In this document: positions 3,901 through 64,000 of the stretch, piece by piece
How positions within the stretch are numbered: the first letter of the stretch is position 1
Layout of the letters: each line of letters opens with the position of its first letter
IMG/VR virus record: IMGVR_UViG_3300032093_000060
Coordinates: 25,793 to 89,792 of that record
Strand: one strand, 5' to 3'
Length of the DNA: 64,000 bases
DNA from: a virus
The notes under the pieces: model-generated
The model's input: only the letters and a program-made list of their open reading frames with translations
Database searches by the model: none
Told to the model about the DNA's origin: nothing
Made by a program: the position numbers and the translations under genes

Positions 3901-4230
3901 GGCCATATCTTTCATAAGACTACTATCTTCATAGAAAGGTCTGAATAACTGAGTAGCTTGTTGAACATTCTGGTCTAATGATAAATCTAATCCAGTAATT
4001 CTTTTCAGATCAAAGTCCATTCTTTTAAAAGTATTATCTCTCTTCTTAATACTTTCACTATGTGTTAAAGGAGCATTTAAAAGTTGTCCATACATACTGT
4101 TAAGTCTGCTCCAGTTTTGATCATACTGAGTTTGCTTTAGCTGTAATACATTAGCTAAAAGATTTAAGTCTGGTTGAGATGCTTGGTAATCAGGTATATA
4201 ATCTGTAACTCCCTGTGGATATTGTGCCAT
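937..4230 (-). CDS. Virion cargo / ejection protein (1097 aa)
   Basis: Long helical ORF downstream of the muzzle gene; glycine-rich hydrophobic stretch (GGGTAGAATGVLGGP...AAGGLIAAG); position matches crAss-like cargo genes. Confidence 0.6.
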   Translation of the reverse strand: MAQYPQGVTDYIPDYQASQPDLNLLANVLQLKQTQYDQNWSRLNSMYGQLLNAPLTHSESIKKRDNTFKRMDFDLKRITGLDLSLDQNVQQATQLFRPFYEDSSLMKDMAFTKNATFERSLGEGKRYSTDEDIYNGYWGDGIRAIDYRIEEFKNTPYEQLTSFGDVKYTPYVNVEKMAREMAEKMKYKVKTTTPQGDWLVTEQNGEQIIAPLKSVFYAELGNDPRVKEFYSTLAYIKRKDTIASDKDLPKYGGNAMAAERDYINENLKILKNQTVQNRDYLLNQKNVNDKMIEKMEKSIEDGTDIETTASSLEKYKQANEQIGTLLQKAEEDMKLLDGDMNKTLNSQGGSDLSKADLTELRGRVDAVKAGSLLQEDLDNAANDFAFMNYEKTYDANPFAVQRQKFQYDSSLIAQRANAQKDVAYYKYLLELDKIGTKAKLDSGLYTKKDNGEIVIKEELADVQAVADMMAVTGQTDPKKLAGAVNKMFEKDAAAASTTITALLDEFEKEGVLSKEDMNYIFGDNSIKGKAKPVEEMLGIGKGAFSKILVQDPTIAKTLKDANTKIQGDERKKIQAQLKKGDFSSLKPEQIISLTQRMNNIIAKKKDNPNIRNSGTVAKMISLGHDLNDYSGYLKAYKQDKKNHAKEVIANMKADGFQYAEYLFDEDYNPRSKEEFKAKVAMEHPDEVSTQDGMSWGGLVNAILGGGTAGAATGVLGGPFAEITIPVGAAAGGLIAAGSYVGTGLLELGYNSLFGDSDDVELDRASYSWTGHHRNVAEEYQAMQDDYESMVEDSRLKSPLAVLNNPVGESSIGLYGQFKNSAVGQFLGFEKQGTGLYTANGAGITIQPGVFSPTYQHYLEVAKTLRNLDTGRDDGSTYISFEGVNKSFLPMGKDKGIEDPKENNEIWNGIWADLKQRTNKKNDVLKSFQVVTSPIAGQDMGKAAIQFRLPEEYLKKFKQDEKGVGLMNKDVYNDVLKNGITIITDANNLSNLTMFKNSFKSREMINIERAGGEGVTYTDPRLPGYSVNYKMGNGGNIVVESVFASYDPNKGKVVFDKDIDNLSNMGVNLRAHRDAYFNNFAMQNQISVNQTRRQYGGK

Positions 4231-4290
4231 AATATTTTTATATTATAAAACTATCAAAATTTTTTAAGTTTAATAAACTTAATAAGTTTA

Positions 4291-39718: not shown

Positions 39719-41335
39719 TTAGAATGATCCACCAGTAACTGGGTTTCTCATAACAATCTTAAGGACCTTAGTAGGGTCTTTTACCCAAATAGCTGGGAAT
39801 GTTTGGGTCATCATTACACGGTATCCGTTGAATTGTCCAGAAGACTGGAATCCTTGGGTACGTCCCATGTAATCCATAGTACCATTTTGATACCACCACT
39901 TCAATTGATTATCCCAAGACAACTTCAATAAGTAGATGTTATCATTAGTGTTATCAGTGATATCAAAGATGATAAAGCTATAAGAAGATAATGGGAAACC
40001 ATCAATGATTGGGTTCTCAATATCATTTGTATGAACATTGTCAAATGCTGGATTCAATACAAACTTAACGTTAGCCAAGAATGGAATAACATAAGAAGTA
40101 TAAGCAAATCCAAAGTTCAAGTCCATACCTTTACCAGTGATTGCACCGATATCAGCAGCCTGGATAGTAAGACCAGAAGCAATTGCTTCTCTTTTAATAG
40201 CCTCATTTACCATTCTCATTCCACCCATACCAGTTTGAACTACTAGAGATCTTTTTGGATCTGGACCTTGGAACTCAACTTTACCATTGAAGAAGTTGTA
40301 GATTTCTCCACGGAACAAATCAAGTGTAAAGTTATTTTTGTTGTATACTCTTTTGAATGAGTTATCCAACTGTCTCCAAAGACCTACAGAAAGTCTCATG
40401 TCATCAGCACCATCTTGACGAAGTCTACCTCCATGTCCCCACATTAAGTAAGTCTCAATGTCAGTTGCAATTTTAGAAAGGTGAGCTGCTTCCATTTGAG
40501 TTAAGAAAGTTCTAGAAAGATCACCATTATCAAATGCTCTTTTAACTTTATCTTTACCCATAACTTTGATCATGTCCTCTAATGATGTAATAGATGGATC
40601 ATTAGTAGCACCAAAGTTTCTCCAGATTTCTGTTACTGGAATAGTACCATCTGCATTCATACCACCTTTAAGCATCAAGTCAGCACGAGAAGATACTGAA
40701 TAATGAACGTGAGCTTCAGCACCTCCTACAAAGTTGTAGAATTCACGGAAACCAGTTCTTGTAGTGATGTCAGAGAATCTTTCACCGTACTCACCTCTTG
40801 CAGAACCTTTTCTGAAAAGTTTGGTTCCGTTAGTAAGGTACTTGTGATCTAAAAATTTATAGTTGTCATTGTTAACCAATTGTACAGTATAAACAAATCC
40901 ATCTCCAATAGGTAGAATGTCTTCATCTGTAATGTACATCTCAACCCCGTTATATTTGTCATAAGTGATGATATCACCATGTCCAAACTCACGTCTGTTA
41001 ACTTTGATTTTGAAAGTTGAACCATCAGTACCAAGAATTCTTGATGGGCTTTCAATGTCCTCAACAATATAAGGAAGGTCAACAGATACAGGAGTCTGCC
41101 ATCTATACTCTCCTCTGTGGTTATCCACATTGATTACATTTTTGCCACCAAAGCTAGACATTTGGTAAAGGGGCATTTCAACTTTCTGAGCCATAGCCCA
41201 TAAGTCAACTGGACCTAAATCCATAGGTTCAGCATCTTTCAGCATGTTAACCAAGTGGTATGAATCCACATGGGAACTTGCATTGTAAGCGGTATCTCTG
41301 AGGAATATACCATTGTTTAAAACTGGAGTTGCCAT
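39719..41335 (-). CDS. Major capsid protein (crAss-like)
   Basis: 538 aa; position portal-scaffold-MCP; TYLMWG, GLWRQL, VVQTGMGGM motifs; highly expressed codon bias; strong terminator. Confidence 0.85.
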   Translation of the reverse strand: MATPVLNNGIFLRDTAYNASSHVDSYHLVNMLKDAEPMDLGPVDLWAMAQKVEMPLYQMSSFGGKNVINVDNHRGEYRWQTPVSVDLPYIVEDIESPSRILGTDGSTFKIKVNRREFGHGDIITYDKYNGVEMYITDEDILPIGDGFVYTVQLVNNDNYKFLDHKYLTNGTKLFRKGSARGEYGERFSDITTRTGFREFYNFVGGAEAHVHYSVSSRADLMLKGGMNADGTIPVTEIWRNFGATNDPSITSLEDMIKVMGKDKVKRAFDNGDLSRTFLTQMEAAHLSKIATDIETYLMWGHGGRLRQDGADDMRLSVGLWRQLDNSFKRVYNKNNFTLDLFRGEIYNFFNGKVEFQGPDPKRSLVVQTGMGGMRMVNEAIKREAIASGLTIQAADIGAITGKGMDLNFGFAYTSYVIPFLANVKFVLNPAFDNVHTNDIENPIIDGFPLSSYSFIIFDITDNTNDNIYLLKLSWDNQLKWWYQNGTMDYMGRTQGFQSSGQFNGYRVMMTQTFPAIWVKDPTKVLKIVMRNPVTGGSF

Positions 41336-53830: not shown

Positions 53831-56242
53831 TTATACGGTTAATAAAAGTTTATATGCTACACCATTTATAGTTACTGGCAAGTAATGTGTTTGTGTTTCA
53901 GTAGAAAGTACAACTGGACCTACTGGAGTTGCTAAACTACCAATTACAAGTTGTCCACTTCCGGTAGCTGTAGCACCTTGTCCAATTACAATACAGTTAT
54001 TAAATGCACCAGTATCAGTATCAGAACCAATTGCTGTGTTATTAGATCCTGTTGCAGAAGCCATTGATCTACCTCCAATTGCAGTATTCTTTAAACCTGT
54101 AATATTATTAGCTAATGTATTATATCCTAAAGATGTGTTATTGGCTCCAGTTGTCATATTTTGACCTGCCAAATGTCCAACGCTTGTGTTGTTATTTCCA
54201 GTTGTAAGATTTTGGTAACTTGCATTACCAATTACAATATTATATGATCCACTTAATGATGCTGAATTTAATACTGAACCTGAACCCATAGCTACGTTAT
54301 TACTACCTGTTGCACTACCAGATAAGGTTTGATAACCAAATGCTGTATTATTTGAACCAGTATTATTATTACTTAAAGCAAAAGTTCCTACAGCAGTATT
54401 ATAACCACCATTGGTAGTACTTCTTAAGGCATATCTACCCATAGCAACATTGGATGTGCCAGTCGAAAGAGTTCCTAAAGCACCTTCACCAAAAGCTGAA
54501 TTATTAGTTCCAGTTGAAACAAATGCTAATGCACTCTGTCCAAAAGCTGAATTACTAGTTCCACTTGATATATTTGATAATGCACCCTCTCCAAACTGTG
54601 TATTACTTGAAATATTACCCGTCCCATTACACCATACAGTTCTATTACTATTATCATATTCAAACTGCGGTGGTAAACTGTAGTTAGGTACATTTAAAGT
54701 TGAACCTACTAAAGTTGCAACACCAGTTGTACCAGTTGTAGTTAGAGTTGCAATACCTGATGGACCAGCTGGACCTTGAGGACCAATTGGACCAGTTGCA
54801 CCCGCAGGTCCTACGGGACCTACAAGACCTTGTGGTCCTACTGCACCAGGTGCACCAGTTGCTCCTGTTGCCCCAGCAGCTCCGGCAGGACCTGTTGCTC
54901 CTACAGCAGCTAATAGTGCCCAATTTCCTGGATCAGATGGAGGATCTAAAAAAGATGGACCTGCACCTGCAGGATTATAACAGAAATAAGATGCTCCACC
55001 AAAAGAAACAGCATCATTTTGTGCATAAGTTGCGGATGGATCCCAAAGTCCTTGCCAAGTTAATCCTGCAGGTCCGATTGGACCCTGTGGACCCGTTGCT
55101 CCTGTAGGACCTTGTGGGCCAGTAGCACCTGTCGCGCCACTAGCTCCAGTAGCACCAACAGGACCGGTAGCACCAACAGGTCCAGCAATTCCTTGTAGTC
55201 CTGTAGCTCCGGCTGCTCCAGCTGGTCCTGCTGGACCTGTAGCACCTATTGATGTTAATAATGCCCAGTTACCTGGATCTGAAGCTGGGTCACTTGCAGA
55301 TGTTACACCTGCAGGATTTGTACAAAAATATGTAGAACCTCCAAATGCTACTGCATCATTTAATGCATATGTAGCCATAGAAACCCAGTTACCTTGCCAG
55401 TTTAAACCTGCTGGTCCTACTGGTCCTTGAGGCCCTTGAGCACCTGTTGCCCCTTGAGGTCCCGCAACTCCTTGAATTCCTTGAGGTCCGGCAGGTCCTG
55501 TTAATCCAATTGGACCTTGTAAACCTGTAGCTCCTGTTGGACCGACTGGACCCGCAGAGCCTGTGGCACCTGTAATACCCTGAATACCTTGAGCTCCTGT
55601 AAGACCAATAGGTCCTTGAGGGCCAGTTAAACCTATAGGTCCTTGTATACCTTGATTTCCTTGTGGACCTTGTGCACCTTGAGATGCAAGTAAAGCCCAA
55701 TTAGTAGAATCTAAATCAGGAGTTAATGTTCCTGCTGTTGCATTAATACAAAAATATGATGCTCCACCATAAGCTACTGCATCATCAACCACATATGATC
55801 CACCAGATACCCATGAACCTTGCCAATTTAATCCAGCTGGACCAACAGCACCTGCTGGGCCTTGGATTCCTTGAGGACCTGCAACCCCTTGGACTCCTGA
55901 TGCTCCCGTTGCTCCAGTTAATCCTTGAGATCCTATTAATCCTTGAGGTCCTTGAAGTCCTTGCGCACCCTGTGGACCAACAGGTCCCTGTGCTCCATTA
56001 GCTCCCTGAACTCCAGTTATACCTTGGATACCTTGTGCTCCTTGAGGTCCAACGGGTCCTTGTGGACCAACTTGACCTTGACCAACTTGAGTTAAAAAAT
56101 TTTGAACAGATATGCCTGCAGCTAAAAAATCATCATCTCTTTGATCATCTTTAATACCGATTGGTATTAAGGTTTTAGTAGGATCAACAGAAGTTACTAC
56201 ACGTCTACTTCGTAACCAGTATATAAAATTTAAAATGTCCAT
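53831..56242 (-). CDS. Collagen-like fibre protein with three CBM5/12-like modules and YadA-head-like repeats
   Basis: Long (Gly-X-Y)n runs; three copies of L.WQG.W.....Y..DAV..GG..YFC...NWALL; C-terminal N.A.G..AL repeats. Confidence 0.85.
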   Translation of the reverse strand: MDILNFIYWLRSRRVVTSVDPTKTLIPIGIKDDQRDDDFLAAGISVQNFLTQVGQGQVGPQGPVGPQGAQGIQGITGVQGANGAQGPVGPQGAQGLQGPQGLIGSQGLTGATGASGVQGVAGPQGIQGPAGAVGPAGLNWQGSWVSGGSYVVDDAVAYGGASYFCINATAGTLTPDLDSTNWALLASQGAQGPQGNQGIQGPIGLTGPQGPIGLTGAQGIQGITGATGSAGPVGPTGATGLQGPIGLTGPAGPQGIQGVAGPQGATGAQGPQGPVGPAGLNWQGNWVSMATYALNDAVAFGGSTYFCTNPAGVTSASDPASDPGNWALLTSIGATGPAGPAGAAGATGLQGIAGPVGATGPVGATGASGATGATGPQGPTGATGPQGPIGPAGLTWQGLWDPSATYAQNDAVSFGGASYFCYNPAGAGPSFLDPPSDPGNWALLAAVGATGPAGAAGATGATGAPGAVGPQGLVGPVGPAGATGPIGPQGPAGPSGIATLTTTGTTGVATLVGSTLNVPNYSLPPQFEYDNSNRTVWCNGTGNISSNTQFGEGALSNISSGTSNSAFGQSALAFVSTGTNNSAFGEGALGTLSTGTSNVAMGRYALRSTTNGGYNTAVGTFALSNNNTGSNNTAFGYQTLSGSATGSNNVAMGSGSVLNSASLSGSYNIVIGNASYQNLTTGNNNTSVGHLAGQNMTTGANNTSLGYNTLANNITGLKNTAIGGRSMASATGSNNTAIGSDTDTGAFNNCIVIGQGATATGSGQLVIGSLATPVGPVVLSTETQTHYLPVTINGVAYKLLLTV

Positions 56243-57403: not shown

Positions 57404-58036
57404 TTATTCGTTATCATAGAACATTCTTTCTGAATCTTCTGTACTCCACTTCTCAAATCCCTCACAATTATAGTAATCTTTGTTTACCAAATAATCTGGT
57501 TTTTCAGGGAATGGTTTAGTAACAAAGCTAGGCTCAGACCATTTGATTCTATTATTTGGTTGCAAAGCTATCTGCCCATTGTCAAGTAAAATAATGTGAT
57601 GACTCTTATGCTCTAATGGATCTTCAGCTAAAGATATGTCAGTGTTAATATCTCCACTACCCCAGTTTATTGTAGCATAATATTTACCAGGATAAAACTT
57701 TCTATCCTTCATATAAACTTCTACAGGAGTATCATAAAGATATGATAGATGTATTATTGTAAAGTTATATGAGAAGCAGTTCCATATCTGTAAATAATGA
57801 AAGGGTAGATCTGGTTCTGGTAATTCTGGTTCTGTCAGTAATGCATGACTTGGTAGTTTATCTCTAAGTACTCCATTCTCTAACAGTACTTGGAACAATG
57901 CAGCTTGTCCCGGTAGACATCTTACAGATATAATTACCCCCGGGGTAAATTCTCCATGACCCTTTTCTCCTTGGTACATGTACTCATTCCTAACAAATAC
58001 TTTGAGAGGAAAAAAGTTGTGTTCAATATATGCCAT
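57404..58036 (-). CDS. Conserved phage protein of unknown function
   Basis: VRNEY...HGEF...LENG..RDKLP...QIWNCFSY...EHK..HII.LDNGQIALQPNNR motif series recurrent in aquatic phages. Confidence 0.75.
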   Translation of the reverse strand: MAYIEHNFFPLKVFVRNEYMYQGEKGHGEFTPGVIISVRCLPGQAALFQVLLENGVLRDKLPSHALLTEPELPEPDLPFHYLQIWNCFSYNFTIIHLSYLYDTPVEVYMKDRKFYPGKYYATINWGSGDINTDISLAEDPLEHKSHHIILLDNGQIALQPNNRIKWSEPSFVTKPFPEKPDYLVNKDYYNCEGFEKWSTEDSERMFYDNE

Positions 58037-58722: not shown

Positions 58723-59601
58723 TTAAATTGGGAAAGATCTACTATCCACTTTTTTTTCTATATAATTTTTATCATTTTCATCAACTGAGTCTTTTACAGA
58801 AAAAGTAATTATTCTACCACCTAATGGTTTTGGAGGAGCACCCCTCTCTATATGCCAACCATGTGATCCTTCACCATACTCTTCTTTGTATGTCCCAGTA
58901 ATGCAATGATGAATCTGTCTTTGTTGAATCTTGTATTTACCATTATGGTTTAATAAACTTTCTCTAACATCATTACGAGAAGAGTTCTCATGTATGTGAC
59001 CCATGGTAAACAAATCCATATCCTCATACATCTCTAAAGCACGAGTAAGATTCAAAGCACCTTTAGTCACAATACCTCCACCGCCAGAACCATGATAGTA
59101 CTTATGCTTAAATGAAGCTGTTGAGTTTTTTCTATAGTGCATAGTATAAACTATCCAACCACCATACCCGCCAATTTGCATATTAGTATTATACTTAAGG
59201 TTCATCATCTCAACAAACCTCTTAAGTAGATCAGTCTCCTGATACTTAATTATCCCGGTCTCATGATTACCATAACCAATAACCTTGATAATATCGGCAT
59301 ATGGTTTAAACCACTCTACCGCAGTCTCTACAATTGAATCTAAGTAAAATGCATTATTATGTTCCGGGAGTATATCTGACTTATTCCTTCTATTATCCCC
59401 CCTCCCTTGCATAAGACAGAATAGATCCCCTACAATAACAACAGGTAGACTATTCTCCTTACAGTAATTAAGATGTTTCTTTAAAAGCTTTCTATCACAA
59501 TGTGGATTATCCCAGTGTATGTCTGACAACACAGCAACCTCTGCTGTCTTTCCAGTAAGACTTATACTATGTATATTCTTACTAATCTTCTTAACCTCCA
59601 T
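58723..59601 (-). CDS. Calcineurin-like metallophosphoesterase
   Basis: SDIH, GDLF, GNHE, HG, GHIH motifs. Confidence 0.88.
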   Translation of the reverse strand: MEVKKISKNIHSISLTGKTAEVAVLSDIHWDNPHCDRKLLKKHLNYCKENSLPVVIVGDLFCLMQGRGDNRRNKSDILPEHNNAFYLDSIVETAVEWFKPYADIIKVIGYGNHETGIIKYQETDLLKRFVEMMNLKYNTNMQIGGYGGWIVYTMHYRKNSTASFKHKYYHGSGGGGIVTKGALNLTRALEMYEDMDLFTMGHIHENSSRNDVRESLLNHNGKYKIQQRQIHHCITGTYKEEYGEGSHGWHIERGAPPKPLGGRIITFSVKDSVDENDKNYIEKKVDSRSFPI

Positions 59602-59625
59602 GTATCTGGTTTAGTGGGTTACATT

Positions 59626-59656
59626 ATAATATACAAAAATTTTTCTTGGCACCAAA
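59626..59656 (-). promoter_or_regulatory. Bacteroidota sigma70-type promoter of the late arm (TTTG-N19-TATATTAT)
   Basis: Same architecture at 56270-56300, 33127-33158 and 25742-25773; perfect TAnnTTTG at 50355, 57391, 58631 and 58711. Confidence 0.65.
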
Positions 59657-59686
59657 ATTATTTCATATTAGAGGAGGAGATGGATC

Positions 59687-59871
59687 CCGGCTGCAGGGGC
59701 CCCCACCCCTTAGCCGGACTGGTGGTACCCCCCAGTCTGAGCCAGCTGGCAGATTGCATCTGACCATCTGTCTAAGAAAATTTCCTTGGCAGGAAATGTT
59801 TCTATGACTGTACCATGCTGTGCATGCTACACTAGCTGTCATGTCATCACAAGCTCTGACATAGGACAGCT
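59687..59871. other. GC-rich array of about six consecutive hairpins at the strand switch
   Basis: CCGGCT/AGCCGG, ACTGG/CCAGT, GGCAGAT/ATCTGTC, AGAAAATTTCCT/AGGAAATGTTTCT, TGTA-CATGC/GCATG-TACA, AGCTGTC-ATGTCA/TGACAT-GACAGCT. Confidence 0.75.
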
Positions 59872-59878
59872 CTTCTGG

Positions 59879-59894
59879 CTAGCCCTGAACATAA
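59879..59894 (+). promoter_or_regulatory. Early promoter-like motif copy 1 (CTAGCCCTGAACATAA)
   Basis: Conserved motif repeated five times ahead of plus-strand units. Confidence 0.75.
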
Positions 59895-59917
59895 TATAAA
59901 ATATTAAATTTTATCTT

Positions 59918-60187
59918 ATGAATAATCTTATCATTCGGGTTATTGCTAACCCAAACTCAAAGAAAACCTGGGTTGTCTATCCCAGTGCAGGCATAAAGCC
60001 TTTCGTTATAGACAAGACCAGGTGCAAAGGTGTCAAGCTTAAGCCCAACAAACATTATGTTGTTGAGCTTAAGCATGCAAAGAGTAAAACTCCACCTTTG
60101 CCTGACACCATATTTGTATATTGCATATATGCATATGGTGAGCTGATGTTAGACAAGTCTACCACAGCTAAGAAGAAAGGGAAGTAA
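59918..60187 (+). CDS. Early hypothetical protein
   Basis: Between motif copy 1 and a terminator; AT-rich leader. Confidence 0.75.
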   Translation: MNNLIIRVIANPNSKKTWVVYPSAGIKPFVIDKTRCKGVKLKPNKHYVVELKHAKSKTPPLPDTIFVYCIYAYGELMLDKSTTAKKKGK

Positions 60188-60199
60188 GATTCCCTTTCT

Positions 60200-60222
60200 A
60201 AAGGGATTTTATCCCTTTTTTT
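60200..60222 (+). terminator. Rho-independent terminator
   Basis: AAAGGGAT TTT ATCCCTTT TTTT; near-identical copy at 60583-60607. Confidence 0.8.
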
Positions 60223-60226
60223 CTTT

Positions 60227-60242
60227 CTAGCCCAGAACATAA
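60227..60242 (+). promoter_or_regulatory. Early promoter-like motif copy 2 (CTAGCCCAGAACATAA)
   Basis: Repeat motif. Confidence 0.75.
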
Positions 60243-60261
60243 CATAAATAAATTTATTGTT

Positions 60262-60576
60262 ATGAAAACACTTTTTGACCTGTCAAAAACTATTCCTGTG
60301 ATAACTGAAGTTCCACAGGCATCAATGGCCATATTAGACTGTGGCTCCACCAAAGTCTTAATGCCCCTATTATCAGATGAATACAATGGTATTCAACAGA
60401 TAAACAGTCTTTGTTGGACAACATTGTCCAAAAAGACTTTTGACCAAATGTATGAACTTATTTCCAAGGAAATAACTTGCATACATATTGATTCTCATAT
60501 CTATTGCCTTGCAGACAAAAGTTATGAGAATAGAATGGCCAAGGCCATTAATGATGATTATGCTTTAGCACCATAA
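60262..60576 (+). CDS. Early protein with ssrA-like C-terminus (AINDDYALAP)
   Basis: Cassette ORF. Confidence 0.75.
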   Translation: MKTLFDLSKTIPVITEVPQASMAILDCGSTKVLMPLLSDEYNGIQQINSLCWTTLSKKTFDQMYELISKEITCIHIDSHIYCLADKSYENRMAKAINDDYALAP

Positions 60577-60582
60577 TCATCA

Positions 60583-60607
60583 AAAGGGATTTTATCCCTT
60601 TCTTTTT
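60583..60607 (+). terminator. Rho-independent terminator
   Basis: AAAGGGAT TTT ATCCCTTT CTTTTT. Confidence 0.8.
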
Positions 60608-60617
60608 CCCTTTCTTT

Positions 60618-60633
60618 CTAGCCCTTAACTTAA
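60618..60633 (+). promoter_or_regulatory. Early promoter-like motif copy 3 (CTAGCCCTTAACTTAA)
   Basis: Repeat motif. Confidence 0.75.
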
Positions 60634-60665
60634 AATGAAATCATTTTAAGTAAATCAATTTTATT

Positions 60666-60857
60666 ATGCTAACAAAATTAATTTTTGCACTATACCTGTT
60701 AACAGGCACAGTGACCCCTCAAGATGAACATGAGGGGAGAGAAACATATACAATCTTCTTAGAAGATGGTACATGTATAGAACATGCCTATGCAGGCGAA
60801 GTTCTAGAATGGATTGAGACAGGCTCATTCCATTATAACGAAGACTTAGAGGATTAA
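60666..60857 (+). CDS. Small acidic protein with a signal-peptide-like N-terminus
   Basis: MLTKLIFALYLLTG followed by an acidic domain. Confidence 0.7.
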   Translation: MLTKLIFALYLLTGTVTPQDEHEGRETYTIFLEDGTCIEHAYAGEVLEWIETGSFHYNEDLED

Positions 60858-60874
60858 CATCCTCTAACTCTTCT

Positions 60875-60902
60875 GAAGAGTTATTCTAACTCTTCTTTTT
60901 TT
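60875..60902 (+). terminator. Rho-independent terminator
   Basis: GAAGAGTTA TTC TAACTCTTC TTTTTTT. Confidence 0.8.
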
Positions 60903-60912
60903 CCCTTTTATT

Positions 60913-60928
60913 CTAGCCCTTAACATAA
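60913..60928 (+). promoter_or_regulatory. Early promoter-like motif copy 4 (CTAGCCCTTAACATAA)
   Basis: Repeat motif. Confidence 0.75.
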
Positions 60929-60957
60929 ATTGATAAATCAATTAAATTTTATAAATT

Positions 60958-61473
60958 ATGGCTTTACAAGCAAAATTTCTAAAAGTTGGCAAAGGTGGAA
61001 CCTTAGCCATCTATGAAGTGCGTGGCACTTCAACTGAGTTAGCATCTTACGTTGCTAACAACTTTAAAAACAGCGAACCTGTTTTCAAATCTACTCCGGA
61101 TGGCAAGCTCATCCTGAGTAATGGAAATAAAGTTCCACTTTATTTCACTTCTTACCCGTTACCGGGCAAGAATATGTGGCACCCTTTGTATCAAGTACAA
61201 ATGGGTGACAATGCAGGTTCTTGGACTTTAGACAAGTCAGAACTGCAATTTGATGCTCTTGTTGCCAAGAGCCTCGGTGCTGACTTAGGTCAGGCAATTG
61301 CAGCCGAGTCTGCAAAAAGGTATGCTGATAGCACACCTGTGTCATCATCTGCATCAAGCTTGCTTGATGAAGAAGATGATAGTGAAGAGGACTTCACTGC
61401 AGATGCTTCTGAAGAAGCAAATTTGGAAACTGTTGAAACAACAGCTCCCAAAACAGCTAAGACTAACAAGTAG
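60958..61473 (+). CDS. Early protein with acidic C-terminal tail
   Basis: LLDEEDDSEEDF tail; cassette ORF. Confidence 0.8.
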   Translation: MALQAKFLKVGKGGTLAIYEVRGTSTELASYVANNFKNSEPVFKSTPDGKLILSNGNKVPLYFTSYPLPGKNMWHPLYQVQMGDNAGSWTLDKSELQFDALVAKSLGADLGQAIAAESAKRYADSTPVSSSASSLLDEEDDSEEDFTADASEEANLETVETTAPKTAKTNK

Positions 61474-61488
61474 CCTTAGCAAAATAAT

Positions 61489-61525
61489 AAGAGTAGCCAC
61501 TAACGTGGTTACTCTTTTATTTTTT
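61489..61525 (+). terminator. Rho-independent terminator
   Basis: AAGAGTAGCCAC TAAC GTGGTTACTCTT TTATTTTTT. Confidence 0.85.
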
Positions 61526-61552
61526 CAAACCTGAAACATAACCCTCTTTCTT

Positions 61553-61568
61553 CTAGCCCGTAACATAG
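61553..61568 (+). promoter_or_regulatory. Early promoter-like motif copy 5 (CTAGCCCGTAACATAG), not followed by an ORF
   Basis: Repeat motif; next credible ORF starts at 61958. Confidence 0.7.
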
Positions 61569-61957
61569 TTTGCTATTGCACTCTTTATAGAGTGCTAATA
61601 CAAGAAACATACAAGTAATATGTAGTTATTTTAAACATTGTGTTTTAAATTTTACAGTTAATAGGCTCAAAGTATAGGGAAATATACTTGCTACTTGCAT
61701 GTATCAGGTTTCAGGTTTCTAACTTTTTGATTAAAATCTTTTGTCTCCACCGTGTGTAGCAAGTAGACTTTAGTATTGATAATCAGATAGTTACAAAATG
61801 CGGAAATAAGTATGTATATATCTGTATGTTATGTATATTGTTACTACTTACTACTTTATACCTTCTACTTATCTTGTATTATTGTATTATAATACTTTAG
61901 TATTATATAGATTTTATATAGCTAAACCTAATTGTGTAACCAACTAAACACATATAT

Positions 61958-62146
61958 ATGAATTCTGTTAATAGAATTACCATTACAGAAGATTATGCTT
62001 TACAGCTTAATACTTCTATTGAAGCTCTTATACTAGAGCAAGAGAAACAAGGCTTCCGGGAAGTTAATAGATACACACATCCTGCGGTAGGATTAGTAGT
62101 TGTTCTAACTGATGCACCTGTACCTGATTATTCTCTTGCACCATGA
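61958..62146 (+). CDS. Small early protein ending PDYSLAP
   Basis: ORF with ATGA coupling to the next gene. Confidence 0.7.
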   Translation: MNSVNRITITEDYALQLNTSIEALILEQEKQGFREVNRYTHPAVGLVVVLTDAPVPDYSLAP

Positions 62147-62388
62147 GTAATAGAGATTCATTCCTTATAGGCTTTATACTTGGAGCTGTTTCTTTCTGCG
62201 TACTTATACATATAGTATTACATGTTATTGTAAAGAAAGAAACTCCCGGGAAAGCCTCTCAGCACATCAAGACTGAATACTTTCTTGAAGTGTCTGAAGA
62301 CAGCATTAAAGTTGAATCTTTACATGGTAATGTTTATCAAGGTACATATAGTGACCTTGATAGCATTATCTGTAAGGATAATCTTTAA
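62143..62388 (+). CDS. Single-TM small protein
   Basis: N-terminal hydrophobic helix. Confidence 0.7.
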   Translation: MSNRDSFLIGFILGAVSFCVLIHIVLHVIVKKETPGKASQHIKTEYFLEVSEDSIKVESLHGNVYQGTYSDLDSIICKDNL

Positions 62389-62396
62389 TTATTAGT

Positions 62397-62925
62397 ACAT
62401 CAACTGTAAATAACCGAGGGGGAGTTTTTAACCTTTGCACTCTATGCGGTTTACATACAAGTAGCAATACTTGAGGGGGTTGTTGATGTCAAGCAAAGTT
62501 CATTACTGTTAGTAAACAGTGACAAACCTGTGGGGCTACTATTGGGTTCTATATTTCTCCTGCAAAGAGAGTATAGTACTGACATATCATTTGCAGTGAT
62601 ATGAATCCAAAGTTAGTGCAGACTTAAAAATCAGGTATTTTACACATAGTATTGATAAAGCTATGTGAGTTTAATTTAAACTATCATTATCATGAGAACT
62701 TATTAGTCTCATGTTATATGATTATCTATTCTCCTTCACAAGATTCCACTTGGGAGAATACAGCTGACTGAAGTGGAATTCAGTTTACTTACAAGAATAA
62801 GGATTCAGCGATCCTTCTCTATGGCCTAGGAAACCATATGTGTCTTGTACAGTTGTTTAAATATTGAGCACAATCAATATTATTATTATTACTAACAATC
62901 AAGTCCTGTGTACCTAGCACAGGCA
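62397..62925 (+). ncRNA. Candidate large structured ncRNA or ncRNA array
   Basis: No credible ORF over ~550 nt; many stems with G-U pairs on the + strand, a GCAA tetraloop, a 7-bp kissing loop and an H-type pseudoknot. Confidence 0.6.
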
Positions 62926-62951
62926 AGTCCTCAAACTAAAAAAATTAAGTT

Positions 62952-63086
62952 ATGATTGTTAAAACTATGATTGAATTGTTCCAAGGTAATTTAACCAAGG
63001 TACAATATGTTAAGTATTCTAATGGTAAAACTATTAAAAGAATACTTGGTAAAGATAATGTTCCTGAATTCATCATTAATCTGTAA
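62952..63086 (+). CDS. Small hypothetical protein (44 aa, not in the ORF track)
   Basis: MIVKTMIELFQGNLTKVQYVKYSNGKTIKRILGKDNVPEFIINL after an A-rich leader. Confidence 0.6.
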   Translation: MIVKTMIELFQGNLTKVQYVKYSNGKTIKRILGKDNVPEFIINL

Positions 63087-63090
63087 GACT

Positions 63091-63243
63091 ATGAAGAATT
63101 ATATGCCATATATCTTTGTTGTTCTTTTGTTAGGAACATTTTCCGGGTTACTTATGTCTATGGGAAGCAACATACTTGCTTCTGTAGGTATGATGTCATT
63201 ATTCTGGGCAGCTATGCTTGCTCCCGTATTGGTTAGCAAGTAA
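63091..63243 (+). CDS. Small two-TM membrane protein (50 aa)
   Basis: Likely true start 63091 (MKNYMPYIFV...), 4 nt after the previous stop. Confidence 0.65.
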   Translation: MKNYMPYIFVVLLLGTFSGLLMSMGSNILASVGMMSLFWAAMLAPVLVSK

Positions 63244-63249
63244 CCATAC

Positions 63250-63277
63250 TATCCTGAGTAGGATATAAAACTGCTCA
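63250..63277 (+). ncRNA. Small H-type pseudoknot (copy 1)
   Basis: TATCC/GGATA and TGAGTA/TGCTCA with an A-rich linker. Confidence 0.55.
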
Positions 63278-63390
63278 CTGCCTATTGTATTATTAAAGAC
63301 ATGAAAGAGTCAACTGTAAAAATCAGTTATAATACAATAAGAAATGGTGAAGCAAAACAGTTAAACAGAAACCATTAATAGCAGTTATTT

Positions 63391-63482
63391 ACTCTCATCC
63401 AAGCAGGATAACATACTACCATTGAGCTTATGATGCTCCGTGATGGATGTATGTCAAGGGTTGCAACCTTGTGAGAGTACCA
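63391..63482 (+). ncRNA. tRNA-like RNA with elongated anticodon arm and encoded CCA
   Basis: ACTCTCA/TGAGAGT acceptor + A + CCA; CAAGG-GTTGCAA-CCTTG T-like arm. Confidence 0.6.
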
Positions 63483-63484
63483 AT

Positions 63485-63599
63485 AATCAGATAGAGAAGA
63501 AAGTTCTCACTCAGCAGTATAACTGACTAGTATACACTTATGTCTAGTCAACATAAGAAAAACTGAGAGGTCAGCAGGTGAAAGTCCTGCTTCTGATTA
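63485..63599 (+). ncRNA. tRNA-like RNA with a 48-nt insert in place of the anticodon loop
   Basis: AATCAGA/TCTGATT; TA; GAGAA/TTCTC; A; CTCAG/CTGAG; AGGTC; AGCAGG-TGAAAGT-CCTGCT. Confidence 0.6.
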
Positions 63600-63632
63600 A
63601 GATACAATAGAAAGGCAGTGATATTCTGCGTA

Positions 63633-63659
63633 TACCTGAGCATGTAGACAAAAGGCTCA
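63633..63659 (+). ncRNA. Small H-type pseudoknot (copy 2)
   Basis: TAC/GTA and TGAGC/GCTCA; sequence similar to copy 1. Confidence 0.45.
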
Positions 63660-63699
63660 TTTTTTTAAACTTAATTAATCACTTATAAATAAACTTAAA

Positions 63700-64000
63700 A
63701 TGAAAATTCATTTAAACTCAAGACAAGGTCTCTATGAAGTAGAGACATATGGTAGAGATACAATTACATTATCTACCAAACATAATGTGTTTCAAGTACC
63801 AGTATCTGATTTTAAATCATTTGCCGGTGGTAATTGGAACTTTAATGTACCCAAAGAAAAAATGGATACATTTTTATCAGTTGTTCAACCTGATAAATAT
63901 AAAATACAAGTTGAACAAGAGAATCAAATACTAACTCTAGCTGTTAGATTAGGTATGATTCAAGATGCAGTTAAAGCACAACAATCAGTTGTTGTAGAAG
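63700..64000 (+). CDS. Hypothetical protein (runs off the right edge)
   Basis: ATG 63700 after an A-rich leader, MKIHLNSRQGLYEVETY...; frame open to the window end. Confidence 0.75.
   Translation, partial: MKIHLNSRQGLYEVETYGRDTITLSTKHNVFQVPVSDFKSFAGGNWNFNVPKEKMDTFLSVVQPDKYKIQVEQENQILTLAVRLGMIQDAVKAQQSVVVE

What the first reader, a model, noticed from the sequence alone, without database searches (positions are those of the whole stretch)
62526..62636. Multibranch RNA with a perfect 7-bp kissing loop
Seen: closing ACCTG/CAGGT and inner TTGGGTTC/GAATCCAA. Two adjacent hairpins have the 7-nt loops CTGCAAA (62560-62566) and TTTGCAG (62590-62596), which are exact reverse complements. An asymmetric purine-rich internal loop (GTGGGG / GCAGACTTAAAAAT) lies at the base. 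Inference: a tertiary-folded RNA such as a ribozyme, aptamer or protein sponge, or intermolecular loop-loop multimerisation as in phi29 pRNA.
Basis: partly seen in the sequence, partly recalled or inferred. Interest (0 to 1): 0.72.

Follow-up and report, generated by a model that had tools for sequence, protein, structure and literature searches.

The report
Hatchet ribozyme with kissing side-arms
This stretch of a freshwater crAss-like phage encodes a known kind of self-cutting RNA, a hatchet ribozyme, whose side arm carries two hairpins whose loops have stayed perfectly complementary through many sequence changes, an add-on I could not find described for this ribozyme.

Summary
Window 62499-62636 (+) is a full-length Hatchet self-cleaving ribozyme (Rfam RF02678, 82.1 bits against a cut-off of 51).

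The two hairpins are an extension of P4 into a three-way junction. In 50 unique relatives from viral and metagenome contigs, 29 keep a Watson-Crick match of 7 nt or more between the two halves of this arm (about 3.8% in controls), using nine different words. On an untouched alignment of nine other-family members the loop-loop helix is 63/63 paired, with double changes at 5 of 7 positions. Both hairpin stems covary too.

Whether the loops pair within one RNA or between copies is unresolved. From the helix lengths I lean to between copies.

RNA contigs from four metatranscriptome studies cover 62513-62894, which suggests the ribozyme heads a structured RNA of about 390 nt.

This scan had already noted hatchets heading phage RNAs, and a two-hairpin P4 insertion, in other genomes. 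Verdict: known family, apparently undescribed peripheral module.

The parts
62469..62492 (+). Candidate P0 hairpin (ACUUGA...UCAAG) upstream of the cut site
   Evidence: Read from the sequence. The fold of 62440-62502 is no better than shuffles (z +1.22), so it is weak in this copy. Across relatives, 37 of 43 distinct upstream flanks have an MFE hairpin of 4 bp or more ending within 12 nt of the cut site (no shuffle control), with a compensatory pair of examples (GATCAGG/CCTGATC against GGTTAGG/CCTAACC).
62502..62503 (+). Predicted scissile bond (A-1 | U+1)
   Evidence: Inferred. The crystal numbering has U1 paired with A19 followed by C20-A22, and L1 U7-U13 equals Rfam model positions 11-17 (passages with the alignment), so U1 is model position 5 = 62503. 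One position upstream (after the conserved C62501) is not excluded. The context in 47 unique relatives is UC-N|U.
62503..62522 (+). P1 (62503-62508 with 62517-62522, 6 bp) and loop L1 (62509-62516)
   Evidence: P1 has 6 of 6 pairs in 38 of 47 unique relatives.
62523..62525 (+). Conserved CAA linker (C20-A22 of the crystal structure)
   Evidence: alignment.
62526..62530 (+). P2 5' strand (ACCUG), pairs with 62632-62636
   Evidence: In the nine sequences of A4, P2 is 100% paired with 2 of 5 pairs changed on both sides.
62531..62537 (+). Conserved UGGG (U28-G31) and the P3 5' strand (G62534-U62537, pairing with C62619, U62617, G62616, A62615)
   Evidence: alignment.
62542..62548 (+). P4 5' strand (UUGGGUU), pairs with 62604-62610
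   Evidence: In A4, P4 is 100% paired with 5 of 7 pairs changed on both sides.
62549..62576 (+). Hairpin hp1 of the P4 three-way junction; 7-nt loop CUGCAAA at 62560-62566
   Evidence: The upper stem is 92.5% paired in 16 distinct rows and 91.1% with 4 of 5 double changes in A4.
62577..62582 (+). 6-nt linker between the hairpins
   Evidence: The loop-to-loop spacing is 22-23 nt in 6 of 8 loop families; part of a seventh has 25 and the eighth has 38.
62583..62603 (+). Hairpin hp2; 7-nt loop UUUGCAG at 62590-62596
   Evidence: The stem is 100% paired with 4 of 5 double changes in A4.
62604..62636 (+). P4 3' strand, P3 3' strand, conserved GCAG (62618-62621) and AAA (62628-62630), and P2 3' strand
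   Evidence: alignment.
62637..62894 (+). Conserved structured block that travels with the ribozyme, ending in hairpin 62861-62880 plus a U-rich tract; RNA contigs end at 62892-62894
   Evidence: MFE -64.2, z -3.98. (43 consensus pairs, 8 with double changes, 16 sequences). (homology starts at 62499/62500). (contigs X15 62514-62893, X16 62582-62894, X17 62536-62892 followed by adapter letters).

Best explanation
Window 62499-62636 (+) is a Hatchet self-cleaving ribozyme in the + strand small-gene arm of a freshwater crAss-like phage (identity: about 0.97). The folded core, made of P1, P2, P3, P4 and the conserved CAA, UGGG, GCAG and AAA nucleotides, positions the phosphate just 5' of P1. The 2'-OH of the preceding nucleotide attacks it, which cuts the transcript between 62502 and 62503. 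The upstream RNA is left ending in a hairpin and a 2',3'-cyclic phosphate. The downstream RNA begins with a 5'-OH and has the compact ribozyme at its head. That downstream product appears to be a discrete structured RNA of about 390 nt ending near 62893 (about 0.6). P4, which laboratory constructs truncate, opens here into a three-way junction with two hairpins whose 7-nt loops are kept complementary by selection (about 0.9). SHOWN: family membership by covariance model; covariation of P2, P4, hp1, hp2 and the loop-loop pairs; presence of this stretch in RNA libraries. INFERRED: cleavage itself, the exact bond, the RNA ends, and pairing in trans rather than in cis.
For: IDENTITY. Hatchet is the only Rfam match in the 64 kb window at gathering threshold: 82.1 bits against 51, model positions 1-133 of 133, E 1.8e-15. 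It is also the only match with E up to 1 in 62300-62900. All the conserved segments named in the crystal-structure paper are present (alignment, passages). P1 has 6 bp, one of the two lengths reported for the class.

LOOP-LOOP PAIRING. 29 of 50 unique relatives have a Watson-Crick match of 7 nt or more between the two halves of the P4 interior, against 84 of 2170 non-cognate pairs and 375 of 10000 shuffles, and they use 9 different words. On A4, an untouched MAFFT alignment of 9 sequences from 5 other loop families, the loop-loop helix is paired in 63 of 63 cells, with 5 of 7 pairs changed on both sides. Of 500 shuffles, 0 reach the paired share, 0 reach the covariation score and 1 reaches the number of double-change pairs. 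Slid partners pair in only 30-46% of cells.

TWO-HAIRPIN FOLD. hp1 is 91-92% paired and hp2 100% paired, each with 4 of 5 double changes in A4. The nested alternative is the MFE fold in only 8 of 28 rows and in none of the rows of 6 of the 8 families.

IN TRANS. All seven nucleotides of both loops pair. In the fully paired loop-loop complexes I recall (ColE1 RNA I/II, TAR/TAR*), the stems stack on the loop helix to form one rod. Here that rod would be 23-24 bp (hp1 9-12 bp or equivalents, plus 7, plus hp2 5-7 bp; stem lengths read), yet both hairpin bases sit 0-2 nt from the same end of P4. L120 has a continuous 12-bp hp1 with no hinge. The loop spacing is constant at 22-23 nt in 6 of 8 families. 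As precedent, kissing loops of the phage RNAs ROOL and GOLLD, first read from covariation as tertiary contacts, were shown by cryo-EM to bridge different chains (passages).

TRANSCRIPT. RNA contigs from four studies lie on 62513-62894. Those of X15 and X16 stop at 62893 and 62894 with no loose end, and that of X17 stops at 62892 followed by adapter letters. None bridges 62494-62513, and one upstream contig ends at 62494. Homology between relatives begins at 62499/62500.
Against: No cleavage was tested, and contigs cannot show true RNA ends. The 62513/62514 starts could also come from a variant at 62512 (T here, C in many relatives) breaking the assembly graph. I did not lay a DNA run beside the RNA runs. 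In published work, a Hatchet with 44 nt of P4 replaced by UUCG still cleaves, so the arm is not needed for catalysis in vitro. The steric argument for trans pairing rests on recalled structures and on helix-length arithmetic; nothing was modelled in 3D. The sister subclass (74-77-nt inserts) has two hairpins of similar height, larger loops and only 3-5 complementary letters, which suits a contact within one molecule and is not above background in my test. The constant spacing could simply be inherited. The rows were chosen because they hold the word pair, so their 100% loop pairing is by construction. The nine rows of A4 were also drawn from the word-pair set, so their paired share is not independent of that choice; what A4 adds is register, compensatory changes and the stems. 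All 16 unique sequences of the window's own loop family share one loop pair, so that family adds no covariation of its own. I could not read the 2015 discovery paper or any supplement, which may already show this arm.
Confidence: 0.5

Rival explanations
1. Same Hatchet ribozyme, but the loops pair within one molecule. The kissing contact braces the P4 three-way junction, helps the ribozyme fold at cellular Mg2+ or hardens the RNA against nucleases, much as loop-loop contacts do in natural hammerheads.
For: The covariation fits cis pairing as well as trans. Hairpin lengths, linker and loop spacing are conserved, as expected for a fixed 3D arrangement. The sister subclass with larger loops and hairpins of similar height looks like a classic side-by-side contact. 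Minimal hatchets need about 5-10 mM Mg2+ to fold or reach full speed, and the authors themselves suggest that native constructs may do better. Li et al. cite the hammerhead precedent.
Against: With no unpaired loop nucleotide left, I know of no geometry that lets two hairpins rooted on the same helix end form a 7-bp loop-loop helix. hp1 is 3-7 bp longer than hp2, so the loops are not at the same height. L120 has no internal loop to act as a hinge. This argument was not modelled.
Confidence: 0.33
2. Same Hatchet ribozyme, but the two 7-mers are simply the two strands of an ordinary nested helix in one long, imperfect P4 hairpin, or of an alternative fold that switches with the two-hairpin fold. 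There is no loop-loop contact.
For: This is the MFE fold of the window's own copy (-18.5 against -15.9 kcal/mol for 62541-62612) and of 8 of 28 rows.
Against: The hp1 and hp2 stems covary, which the nested fold would break. In all rows of 6 of the 8 loop families the nested fold is not the MFE fold, and the flanks that would extend the nested helix are not complementary there, for example in L006.
Confidence: 0.07
3. Not a ribozyme at all: a chance match, or an aptamer or protein-binding RNA that merely resembles Hatchet.
For: No biochemical test was run. Single-sequence folding is only modestly better than shuffles (z -2.19, z -1.64).
Against: The score is 31 bits above the curated cut-off over the full model. 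All conserved core nucleotides are present. My own model R1 found exactly one full- or near-full-length copy in each of 77 sources at 74-152 bits; this is not independent, because those sources were collected with the core pattern. None of 14 control genomes matched.
Confidence: 0.03

Closest known systems
Hatchet self-cleaving ribozyme, Rfam RF02678 (Li et al. 2015, PMC4604424, parts 1-2 read; Zheng et al. 2019, PMC6561176, passages read; Weinberg et al. 2015, recalled, not held)
   Same: Four stems in the same order, a 6-bp P1 with the cut site at its 5' base, the conserved CAA linker, the UGGG / GCAG / AAA core, an L1 loop related to UGAGAAU, an upstream hairpin (P0) in most relatives, and a viral metagenomic origin.
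   Different: P4 is not a simple hairpin of variable length. It is a three-way junction with two hairpins whose 7-nt loops covary as a 7-bp helix. The published descriptions I could read give four stems, two loops and two bulges, list Hatchet among RNAs with 'simple secondary structures', never use the word 'kissing', and truncate P4 in every construct. The palindrome A67-U70 (per the Rfam consensus, ACGU), which the crystal paper blames for the strand-swapped dimer, is ACUU here.
Fully paired loop-loop ('kissing') complexes such as ColE1 RNA I/RNA II and HIV TAR/TAR* (recalled, not looked up)
   Same: Two hairpin loops of 6-7 nt in which every loop nucleotide is Watson-Crick complementary to the other loop. 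The loops have a pyrimidine-U start and a purine-rich end (CU-NNN-AA and UU-NNN-AG) with the variable letters in the middle.
   Different: Those complexes form between two separate RNAs with different roles. Here both loops are on one transcript, on neighbouring arms of one junction.
   Same: Phage-encoded non-coding RNA. Complementary loops within one gene that covary. In ROOL and GOLLD such pairs were first read as tertiary contacts and then shown to join different chains.
   Different: No multimer has been observed here. The RNA is smaller (about 390 nt) and carries a self-cleaving ribozyme, which those RNAs do not. There is no sequence or Rfam similarity.
Loop-loop tertiary contacts between stems I and II of natural hammerhead ribozymes (as cited by Li et al. 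2015)
   Same: A peripheral contact between two arms of a small self-cleaving ribozyme that minimal laboratory constructs lack.
   Different: The hammerhead contacts lie next to the active site and mostly involve few or non-canonical pairs. Here the contact lies beyond P4, far from the core, and is a perfect 7-bp helix.

Membership tests
Hatchet ribozyme (RF02678) | Covariance-model score above the curated gathering score, over the full model | tested here: met
   82.1 bits against 51, model positions 1-133 of 133, not truncated.
Hatchet ribozyme (RF02678) | Stems P1-P4 in order, with P1 of 3 or 6 bp (Li 2015) | tested here: met
   The structure line. P1 is UUACUG/CAGUGA, 6 bp including one G-U. 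P2 and P4 are 100% paired with double changes in relatives.
Hatchet ribozyme (RF02678) | Highly conserved nucleotides C20-A22, U28-G31, G63-G66, A73-A75 (Zheng 2019) | tested here: met
   CAA 62523-62525, UGGG 62531-62534, GCAG 62618-62621, AAA 62628-62630, read from the alignment. The mapping to the crystal numbers is mine.
Hatchet ribozyme (RF02678) | Cut site at the 5' base of P1 | not testable with these tools
   Predicted at 62502|62503 by alignment. The only hint is that no RNA contig of four runs bridges 62494-62513, which is weak and has another possible cause.
Hatchet ribozyme (RF02678) | P0 hairpin a few nucleotides upstream (about 90% of members, Li 2015) | tested here: inconclusive
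   A 5-6 bp candidate lies at 62469-62492, but the region folds no better than shuffles. 37 of 43 relatives' flanks have such a hairpin (no control).
Hatchet ribozyme (RF02678) | Mg2+-dependent self-cleavage giving a 2',3'-cyclic phosphate and a 5'-OH | not testable with these tools
   Needs a bench assay.
Fully paired kissing-loop complex | Two hairpin loops, every loop nucleotide Watson-Crick complementary, stems intact | tested here: met
   7 of 7 positions complementary, stems covary.
Fully paired kissing-loop complex | The loop-loop helix physically forms | not testable with these tools
   Covariation implies selection for pairing. No probing or structure is available.
Self-assembling phage RNAs (pRNA, ROOL, GOLLD type) | Complementary loops that cannot meet within one chain and so join chains | tested here: inconclusive
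   Helix-length arithmetic only. No 3D model.
Self-assembling phage RNAs (pRNA, ROOL, GOLLD type) | Observed homo-oligomer | not testable with these tools
   Needs native gels, mass photometry or cryo-EM.

The most novel reading that the evidence does not exclude
The covarying loops are a quaternary, not a tertiary, contact. The variable middle triplet would act as a lineage-specific address that keeps the RNAs of co-infecting relatives apart. That would make this the first small self-cleaving ribozyme with an evolved self-assembly module, and it would link ribozyme processing to the newly found world of RNA-only assemblies in phages.
Probability: 0.4. Interest if true: 0.8.

Novelty: new variant of a known kind. 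Interest (0 to 1): 0.55.

Why it matters
Hatchet is one of the least understood self-cleaving ribozymes. According to the papers I could read, its members came from metagenomes, its biological role is unknown, and all biochemistry and structures used constructs with P4 cut short.

This locus and its relatives show three things:
- In one environmental lineage, P4 carries a module under strong selection for a 7-bp loop-loop helix.
- The ribozyme sits at the head of a conserved, highly structured RNA that is present in RNA libraries from lakes.
- The ribozyme's 5' edge is also the edge of the conserved unit.

Together these give a concrete natural substrate and a testable role: making the 5' end of a stable phage non-coding RNA. 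They also give a simple mixing experiment to ask whether a natural ribozyme uses kissing loops to self-assemble, as recently shown for other phage RNAs. If the loops instead act in cis, they are a candidate explanation for the high Mg2+ demand of minimal hatchets.

Tried and rejected
LOOP DEFINITIONS THAT FAILED. Loops taken from MFE folds of each half were unusable because RNAfold closes UU..AG into a triloop. A stem-only rule slipped by one register in repetitive stems and missed G-U-closed hairpins.

ALIGNMENTS THAT FAILED. A2 was discarded because MAFFT aligned hp1 of some rows with hp2 of others. My covariance model R1 and its alignment A3 kept the window's subgroup one column out of register in hp2, so A3 was not used for counts. 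A1 has the same offset.

SEARCHES WITH NO USEFUL RESULT.
- The 'phages' collection holds nothing like 62440-62700.
- No tRNA lies in the window, so this is not a tRNA-processing setting.
- The eight small + strand ORFs next to the ribozyme have no PHROG family; the two - strand ORFs in the same call do.
- Promoter-like sites are not above shuffles (22 against 18.1).
- The loop word CTGCAAA is not enriched in the window (17 against 13.3 +/- 4.0) and occurs nowhere else in 62380-63700, so no third docking site was found.

CIRCULAR RNA OR SECOND CUT SITE (a lead from earlier notes). Not supported here. UUACUA at 62889-62894 matches P1's 5' strand in 5 of 6 letters, but many relatives have TTAACA there. 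The contigs end at 62892, 62893 and 62894 with no wrapped-around letters, and no back-joint was listed.

phi14:2. The cultured crAss-like phage with abundant early non-coding RNAs has no Hatchet.

PARTS OF THE LAID STRETCH WITHOUT RNA COVER. 61700-62387 and 62906-63700 had no contig in the four runs. As that tool states, this is no evidence of silence.

SISTER SUBCLASS. Its 3-5-nt loop matches (AAGG/CCTT, ACGG/CCGT, GGG/CCC) are not above the background of my test, so I claim nothing from them.

LITERATURE. 'Hatchet ribozyme' gave 45 papers. Hatchet + ribozyme + kissing gave 16, none about a Hatchet kissing loop judging by listing and abstracts. 'Hatchet ribozyme' + 'three-way junction' gave 10; in the one I opened the junctions belong to twister and twister-sister. 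The 2015 discovery paper is not held and supplements are closed, so I cannot say that the arm is unpublished, only that I did not find it.
Full report
WHAT IS THERE. ACCTG/CAGGT closes the element, TTGGGTT/AATCCAA lies inside it, and two hairpins carry the 7-nt loops CTGCAAA (62560-62566) and TTTGCAG (62590-62596), which are exact reverse complements. A scan of the whole 64 kb window against Rfam gives one match at gathering threshold: Hatchet ribozyme RF02678 at 62499-62636 on the + strand, 82.1 bits against a cut-off of 51, covering model positions 1-133 of 133. It is also the only match with E up to 1 in 62300-62900. The window's own record, an IMG/VR virus contig of 89,792 bases rated 75% complete, has this one copy, and none of 14 control genomes matched.

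The 'closing' helix is P2. The 'inner' helix is P4. The 'asymmetric purine-rich internal loop GTGGGG / GCAGACTTAAAAAT' is the conserved L2 region that builds the active site.

The crystal-structure paper (PMC6561176, passages) names C20-A22, U28-G31, G63-G66 and A73-A75 as the highly conserved segments. Here they are CAA 62523-62525, UGGG 62531-62534, GCAG 62618-62621 and AAA 62628-62630 (alignment; the mapping is mine). That paper has U1 pairing with A19 at the base of P1 and L1 as U7-U13. L1's consensus UGAGAAU is Rfam model positions 11-17, so U1 is model position 5, which is U62503. The predicted scissile bond is therefore 62502|62503. A cut one position upstream, after the conserved C62501, is not excluded. 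In 47 unique relatives the context is UC at -3,-2 (40 of 47), any base at -1 (T 31, A 8, C 8) and U at +1 (45 of 47). P1 has all six pairs in 38 of 47.

THE HOST GENOME. A 538-aa protein (39719-41335, - strand) matches Pfam Crass_capsid, the Crassvirus major capsid protein (E 6e-29, 101 bits against a cut-off of 27). The ribozyme lies in a block of small + strand ORFs without PHROG families. No tRNA gene is in the window. The DNA runs that hold this stretch are almost all labelled freshwater metagenomes.

ARE THE TWO HAIRPINS AND THEIR LOOP MATCH REAL? Folding of the window's copy alone does not decide. The MFE fold makes one long hairpin in which the two 7-mers form an ordinary helix (-18.5 kcal/mol for 62541-62612), against -15.9 for two hairpins with open loops, to which a 7-bp duplex of about -7.0 could add. 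So I collected relatives.

With the window that makes 116 instances, of which 87 have Hatchet-like flanks and 35 have unique P3-P4 inserts. A narrower pattern for the window's P3 type found 25 viral and 51 metagenome loci. These give 77 instances and 50 unique inserts.

A test that needs no hairpin calling compares the left and right halves of each P4 interior. The longest Watson-Crick match is 7 nt or more in 29 of 50 unique sequences, against 84 of 2170 non-cognate half-pairs and 375 of 10000 shuffles. The 29 use nine different words:
- CTGCAAA (the window's family, 16 unique sequences)
- TTATCAG
- CTACTAA
- CTACCAA
- CTGTTAA
- CTATCAA
- CTGTAAA
- TTAACAG (as a 9-mer)
- TAGCAAT

Three more sequences have 6-nt matches.

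For 28 rows (16 distinct), the five letters on each side of each word form stems. hp1 is 92.5% paired and hp2 100% paired, and 0 of 500 shuffles reach the paired share or the covariation score. These stems were not used to choose the rows; the loop pairing itself was, so its 100% in that table is by construction. L163 (TAGCAAT) was left out of that table because its word is not flanked by such stems.

A FORMAL COUNT ON AN UNTOUCHED ALIGNMENT. MAFFT and my covariance model kept putting the window's subgroup one column out of register in hp2. I therefore ran the counting tool on A4, a MAFFT alignment of nine full-length hatchets from five other loop families, whose loops MAFFT placed in register by itself.

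| Helix | Cells paired | Pairs changed on both sides |
|---|---|---|
| Loop-loop helix | 63 of 63 | 5 of 7 (other 2 invariant) |
| P4 | 100% | 5 of 7 |
| P2 | 100% | 2 of 5 |
| hp1 | 91.1% | 4 of 5 |
| hp2 | 100% | 4 of 5 |

Controls for the loop-loop helix alone: 0 of 500 shuffles reach the paired share or the covariation score (0.476 against a mean of 0.235), 1 of 500 reaches five double-change pairs, and partners slid by 1-3 columns pair in only 30-46% of cells. The measure 'further pair types' does not exceed the shuffles (500 of 500 reach it). These nine rows were themselves drawn from the set that holds a word pair, so what A4 adds is register, compensatory change and the stems, not an independent estimate of how often the loops match.

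The nested single-hairpin alternative is the MFE fold in 8 of 28 rows (7 in the window's family, 1 in another) and in none of the rows of six of the eight families. I conclude that the conserved fold is a three-way junction on P4 and that selection keeps the two loops complementary.

IS THIS DESCRIBED? In the text I could read, the Hatchet consensus is four stems, two loops and two internal bulges (PMC6101554, passages). Hatchet is listed among RNAs with 'simple secondary structures' (PMC5737381, passage). P4 was truncated for biochemistry, with 44 nt replaced by UUCG and activity retained (PMC4604424, parts 1-2). The word 'kissing' does not occur in the structure paper. Searches for Hatchet with 'kissing' (16 papers) and with 'three-way junction' (10 papers) turned up nothing on a Hatchet P4 junction, judging from listings, abstracts and one paper that I opened. 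The 2015 discovery paper is not held and supplements are closed, so prior depiction cannot be excluded. Notes of this scan on other genomes mention a 'two-hairpin P4 insertion' and 'a large folded side-arm, as most hatchets of these phages have'.

CIS OR TRANS? The loops read CU-NNN-AA and UU-NNN-AG. Positions 2 and 6 never vary, the middle three carry most of the variation, and in three families the two loop types sit on swapped hairpins. All seven letters of both loops pair. In the fully paired loop-loop complexes that I recall (ColE1 RNA I/II, TAR/TAR*), the two stems stack on the loop helix and form one bent rod. Here hp1 has 9-12 pairs or pair-equivalents, usually with a 2x2 U/U internal loop, and hp2 has 5-7 pairs. 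The rod would therefore be 23-24 bp, while both hairpin bases are 0-2 nt from the same end of P4 (sequences). L120 has an uninterrupted 12-bp hp1. I see no way to close that ring within one molecule.

Two molecules can close it neatly: loop 1 of A with loop 2 of B, and the reverse, giving two equal rods between two junctions. The loop-to-loop spacing is 22-23 nt in six of eight families; part of one family has 25, and one family with an inserted hairpin has 38.

Phage RNAs give a precedent. In ROOL and GOLLD, kissing loops first read from covariation as tertiary contacts proved to be bridges between chains (PMC12286853, passages). The manA motif forms pentamers through kissing loops (preprint 10.64898/2026.07.01.735769, passages).

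Against this reading:
- Nothing was modelled.
- The sister subclass looks built for a cis contact.
- Minimal hatchets need 5-10 mM Mg2+, which a cis brace could explain.

I put trans at 0.45-0.5, cis at about 0.33 and a nested or switching helix at about 0.07.

THE RIBOZYME HEADS A LARGER RNA. In a blastn of 59500-64000 against related loci, the homology blocks of 23 loci start at 62499 or 62500 (two more at 62496 and 62506) and run to 62787-63219, mostly 62933-63073. The 108 nt upstream (62392-62499) is a separate block that lies 750-900 nt downstream of the ribozyme in L004, L096, L139, L161 and L169.

The stretch 62637-62895 has no ORF above 39 aa on the + strand and folds at -64.2 kcal/mol against -47.0 +/- 4.3 for shuffles (z -3.98). 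In 16 aligned sequences the consensus fold has 43 pairs, 8 of them with double changes. These include a hairpin with the conserved loop (G/C)UAGGA(A/U)A, a stem supported by U-A to C-G and A-U to G-C changes, and a small hairpin with A-U to G-C changes in three sequences.

It ends in a hairpin (62861-62880) whose stem also changes compensatorily by eye in L004, L102 and L125, followed by UAUUAUUAUUAC.

Two neighbouring hairpins in this block (loops AUUCCA and GUGGAA) are again complementary, but they are invariant in my set, so they are untested.

RNA DATA. Six metatranscriptome runs from four studies hold part of 62380-62960. I laid one run per study; all are kept as contigs, which cannot prove ends.
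- X15 has one 380-nt contig lying exactly on 62514-62893.
- X16 has one 313-nt contig on 62582-62894.
- X17 has one on 62536-62892 with Illumina adapter letters on both sides.
- X19 has pieces on 62513/62514-62683 and 62724-62846, plus a 429-nt contig whose last 107 nt are 62388-62494.

No contig bridges 62494-62513. Three studies thus stop within three bases of each other at the 3' side, two of them with no loose end and one followed by adapter letters; the tool itself calls such agreement a weak hint. The 5' side at 62513/62514 may reflect loss of the first bases of a 5' end at 62503. It may equally reflect a break in the assembly graph at the T/C variant at 62512. Loose ends in X17 and X19 carry the loop words of other Hatchet families, so those are present in RNA libraries too.

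WHAT THIS SUGGESTS ABOUT FUNCTION (inferred). The ribozyme cuts a longer early transcript. The upstream product ends in a hairpin, P0, which 37 of 43 relatives' flanks have, followed by a cyclic phosphate. The downstream product starts with a 5'-OH inside a compact fold and ends at a terminator-like hairpin. That is the make-up of a stable non-coding RNA.

A cultured crAss-like phage, phi14:2, makes two early non-coding RNAs more abundant than most mRNAs, with unknown function (preprint 10.1101/2020.03.07.982082, passages). It has no Hatchet, however, so the link is by analogy only.

In other Hatchet classes, the first ORF of 50 aa or more in the 500 nt after the ribozyme starts 181-472 nt downstream in 24 of 36 sampled loci. 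Nine had none there and three had one starting at +32 to +34. The window's downstream motifs are not conserved beyond its close relatives.

LEADS FROM EARLIER NOTES, TESTED. Notes on other genomes propose that a second copy of the cut site lets the phage excise and circularise the RNA. Here UUACUA (62889-62894) resembles P1's 5' strand in 5 of 6 letters. But many relatives have TTAACA at that place, the contigs end at three adjacent positions beyond the would-be cut with no wrapped letters, and no back-joint was listed. I do not support a circle at this locus.

VERDICT. The finding is a true Hatchet ribozyme, a known family and a new member of it. Its P4 arm carries a covarying 7-bp loop-loop module that I could not find described, which makes it a new variant. 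It probably forms the 5' end of a structured phage RNA of about 390 nt.

Noticed in passing
window 62637-62894 (+): A conserved, ORF-poor, strongly folding block directly after the ribozyme (z -3.98; 43 consensus pairs, 8 with double changes in 16 sequences). It has a variable insert at about 62685-62740, which is absent in L125. No Rfam family matches it. RNA contigs of four studies lie on it.
   Followed up: partly
window 62725-62785 (+): Two neighbouring hairpins whose loops AUUCCA and GUGGAA(U) are complementary; the same letters can be drawn as an H-type pseudoknot. They are invariant in 16 relatives, so untested. The small 3' hairpin has an A-U to G-C double change in 3 sequences.
   Followed up: partly
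window 62392-62499 (+): The 108 nt just upstream of the cut site form a separate mobile block. In L004, L096, L139, L161 and L169 its homologue (88-92% identity) lies 750-900 nt downstream of the ribozyme instead. One RNA contig ends at 62494.
   Followed up: partly
window 63454-63485 and 63605-63658 (+): Short islands kept at 91-97% identity in many related loci although the sequence around them differs. They fall in and next to the stretches that earlier readers called tRNA mimics.
   Followed up: no
window 62899-62930 (+), and 260-410 nt after the ribozyme in L003, L120, L124, L145, L155: The word AAGTCCT is repeated on both sides of the hairpin CCUGUG...CACAGG just before the next ORF. The word recurs at a similar distance downstream of hatchets of other loop families.
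   Followed up: no
L003, L006, L123, L128, L140, L143, L145, L157, L168, L171: the 25-30 nt before the cut site: A shared motif GCGGAU-N4-5-AU(A/G)GCUAUAA ends a few bases before the Hatchet cut site in many loci that do not belong to the window's family. It contains a TATAAT-like word, so transcription might start almost at the ribozyme there.
   Followed up: no
L178 (Cellulophaga phage phi14:2, NC_021806) 4031-4502 (+): The long gene-free region before the gene annotated g006, which may correspond to one of the two abundant early non-coding RNAs reported for this phage, scores 46 bits against Rfam tmRNA (cut-off 47, E 6.8e-16, model positions 1-374 of 374).
   Followed up: no
L007, L059, L026 and other gut-type loci (85-88-nt P4 inserts): Hatchets with a different P3 (GUAAG...AUC) also have elaborate P4 arms with competing long-range pairings that change together between subtypes, for example AUAUUA-UU-CCC/GGGUAAUAU against CUUUAU-A-CC/GGAUAAAG (by eye).
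   Followed up: no
window 53831-56242 (-) and 57404-58036 (-): An 803-aa protein with collagen triple-helix repeats and a CBM_5_12 carbohydrate-binding module, and a 210-aa protein of PHROG 3704, which is annotated 'ferredoxin'.
   Followed up: no
RNA runs X17 and X19, loose ends at 62609/62610: Contigs carrying the loop words of other Hatchet families (UUAACAG and CUGAUAA types) are present in the same lake metatranscriptomes, so several Hatchet lineages occur in RNA libraries side by side.
   Followed up: no
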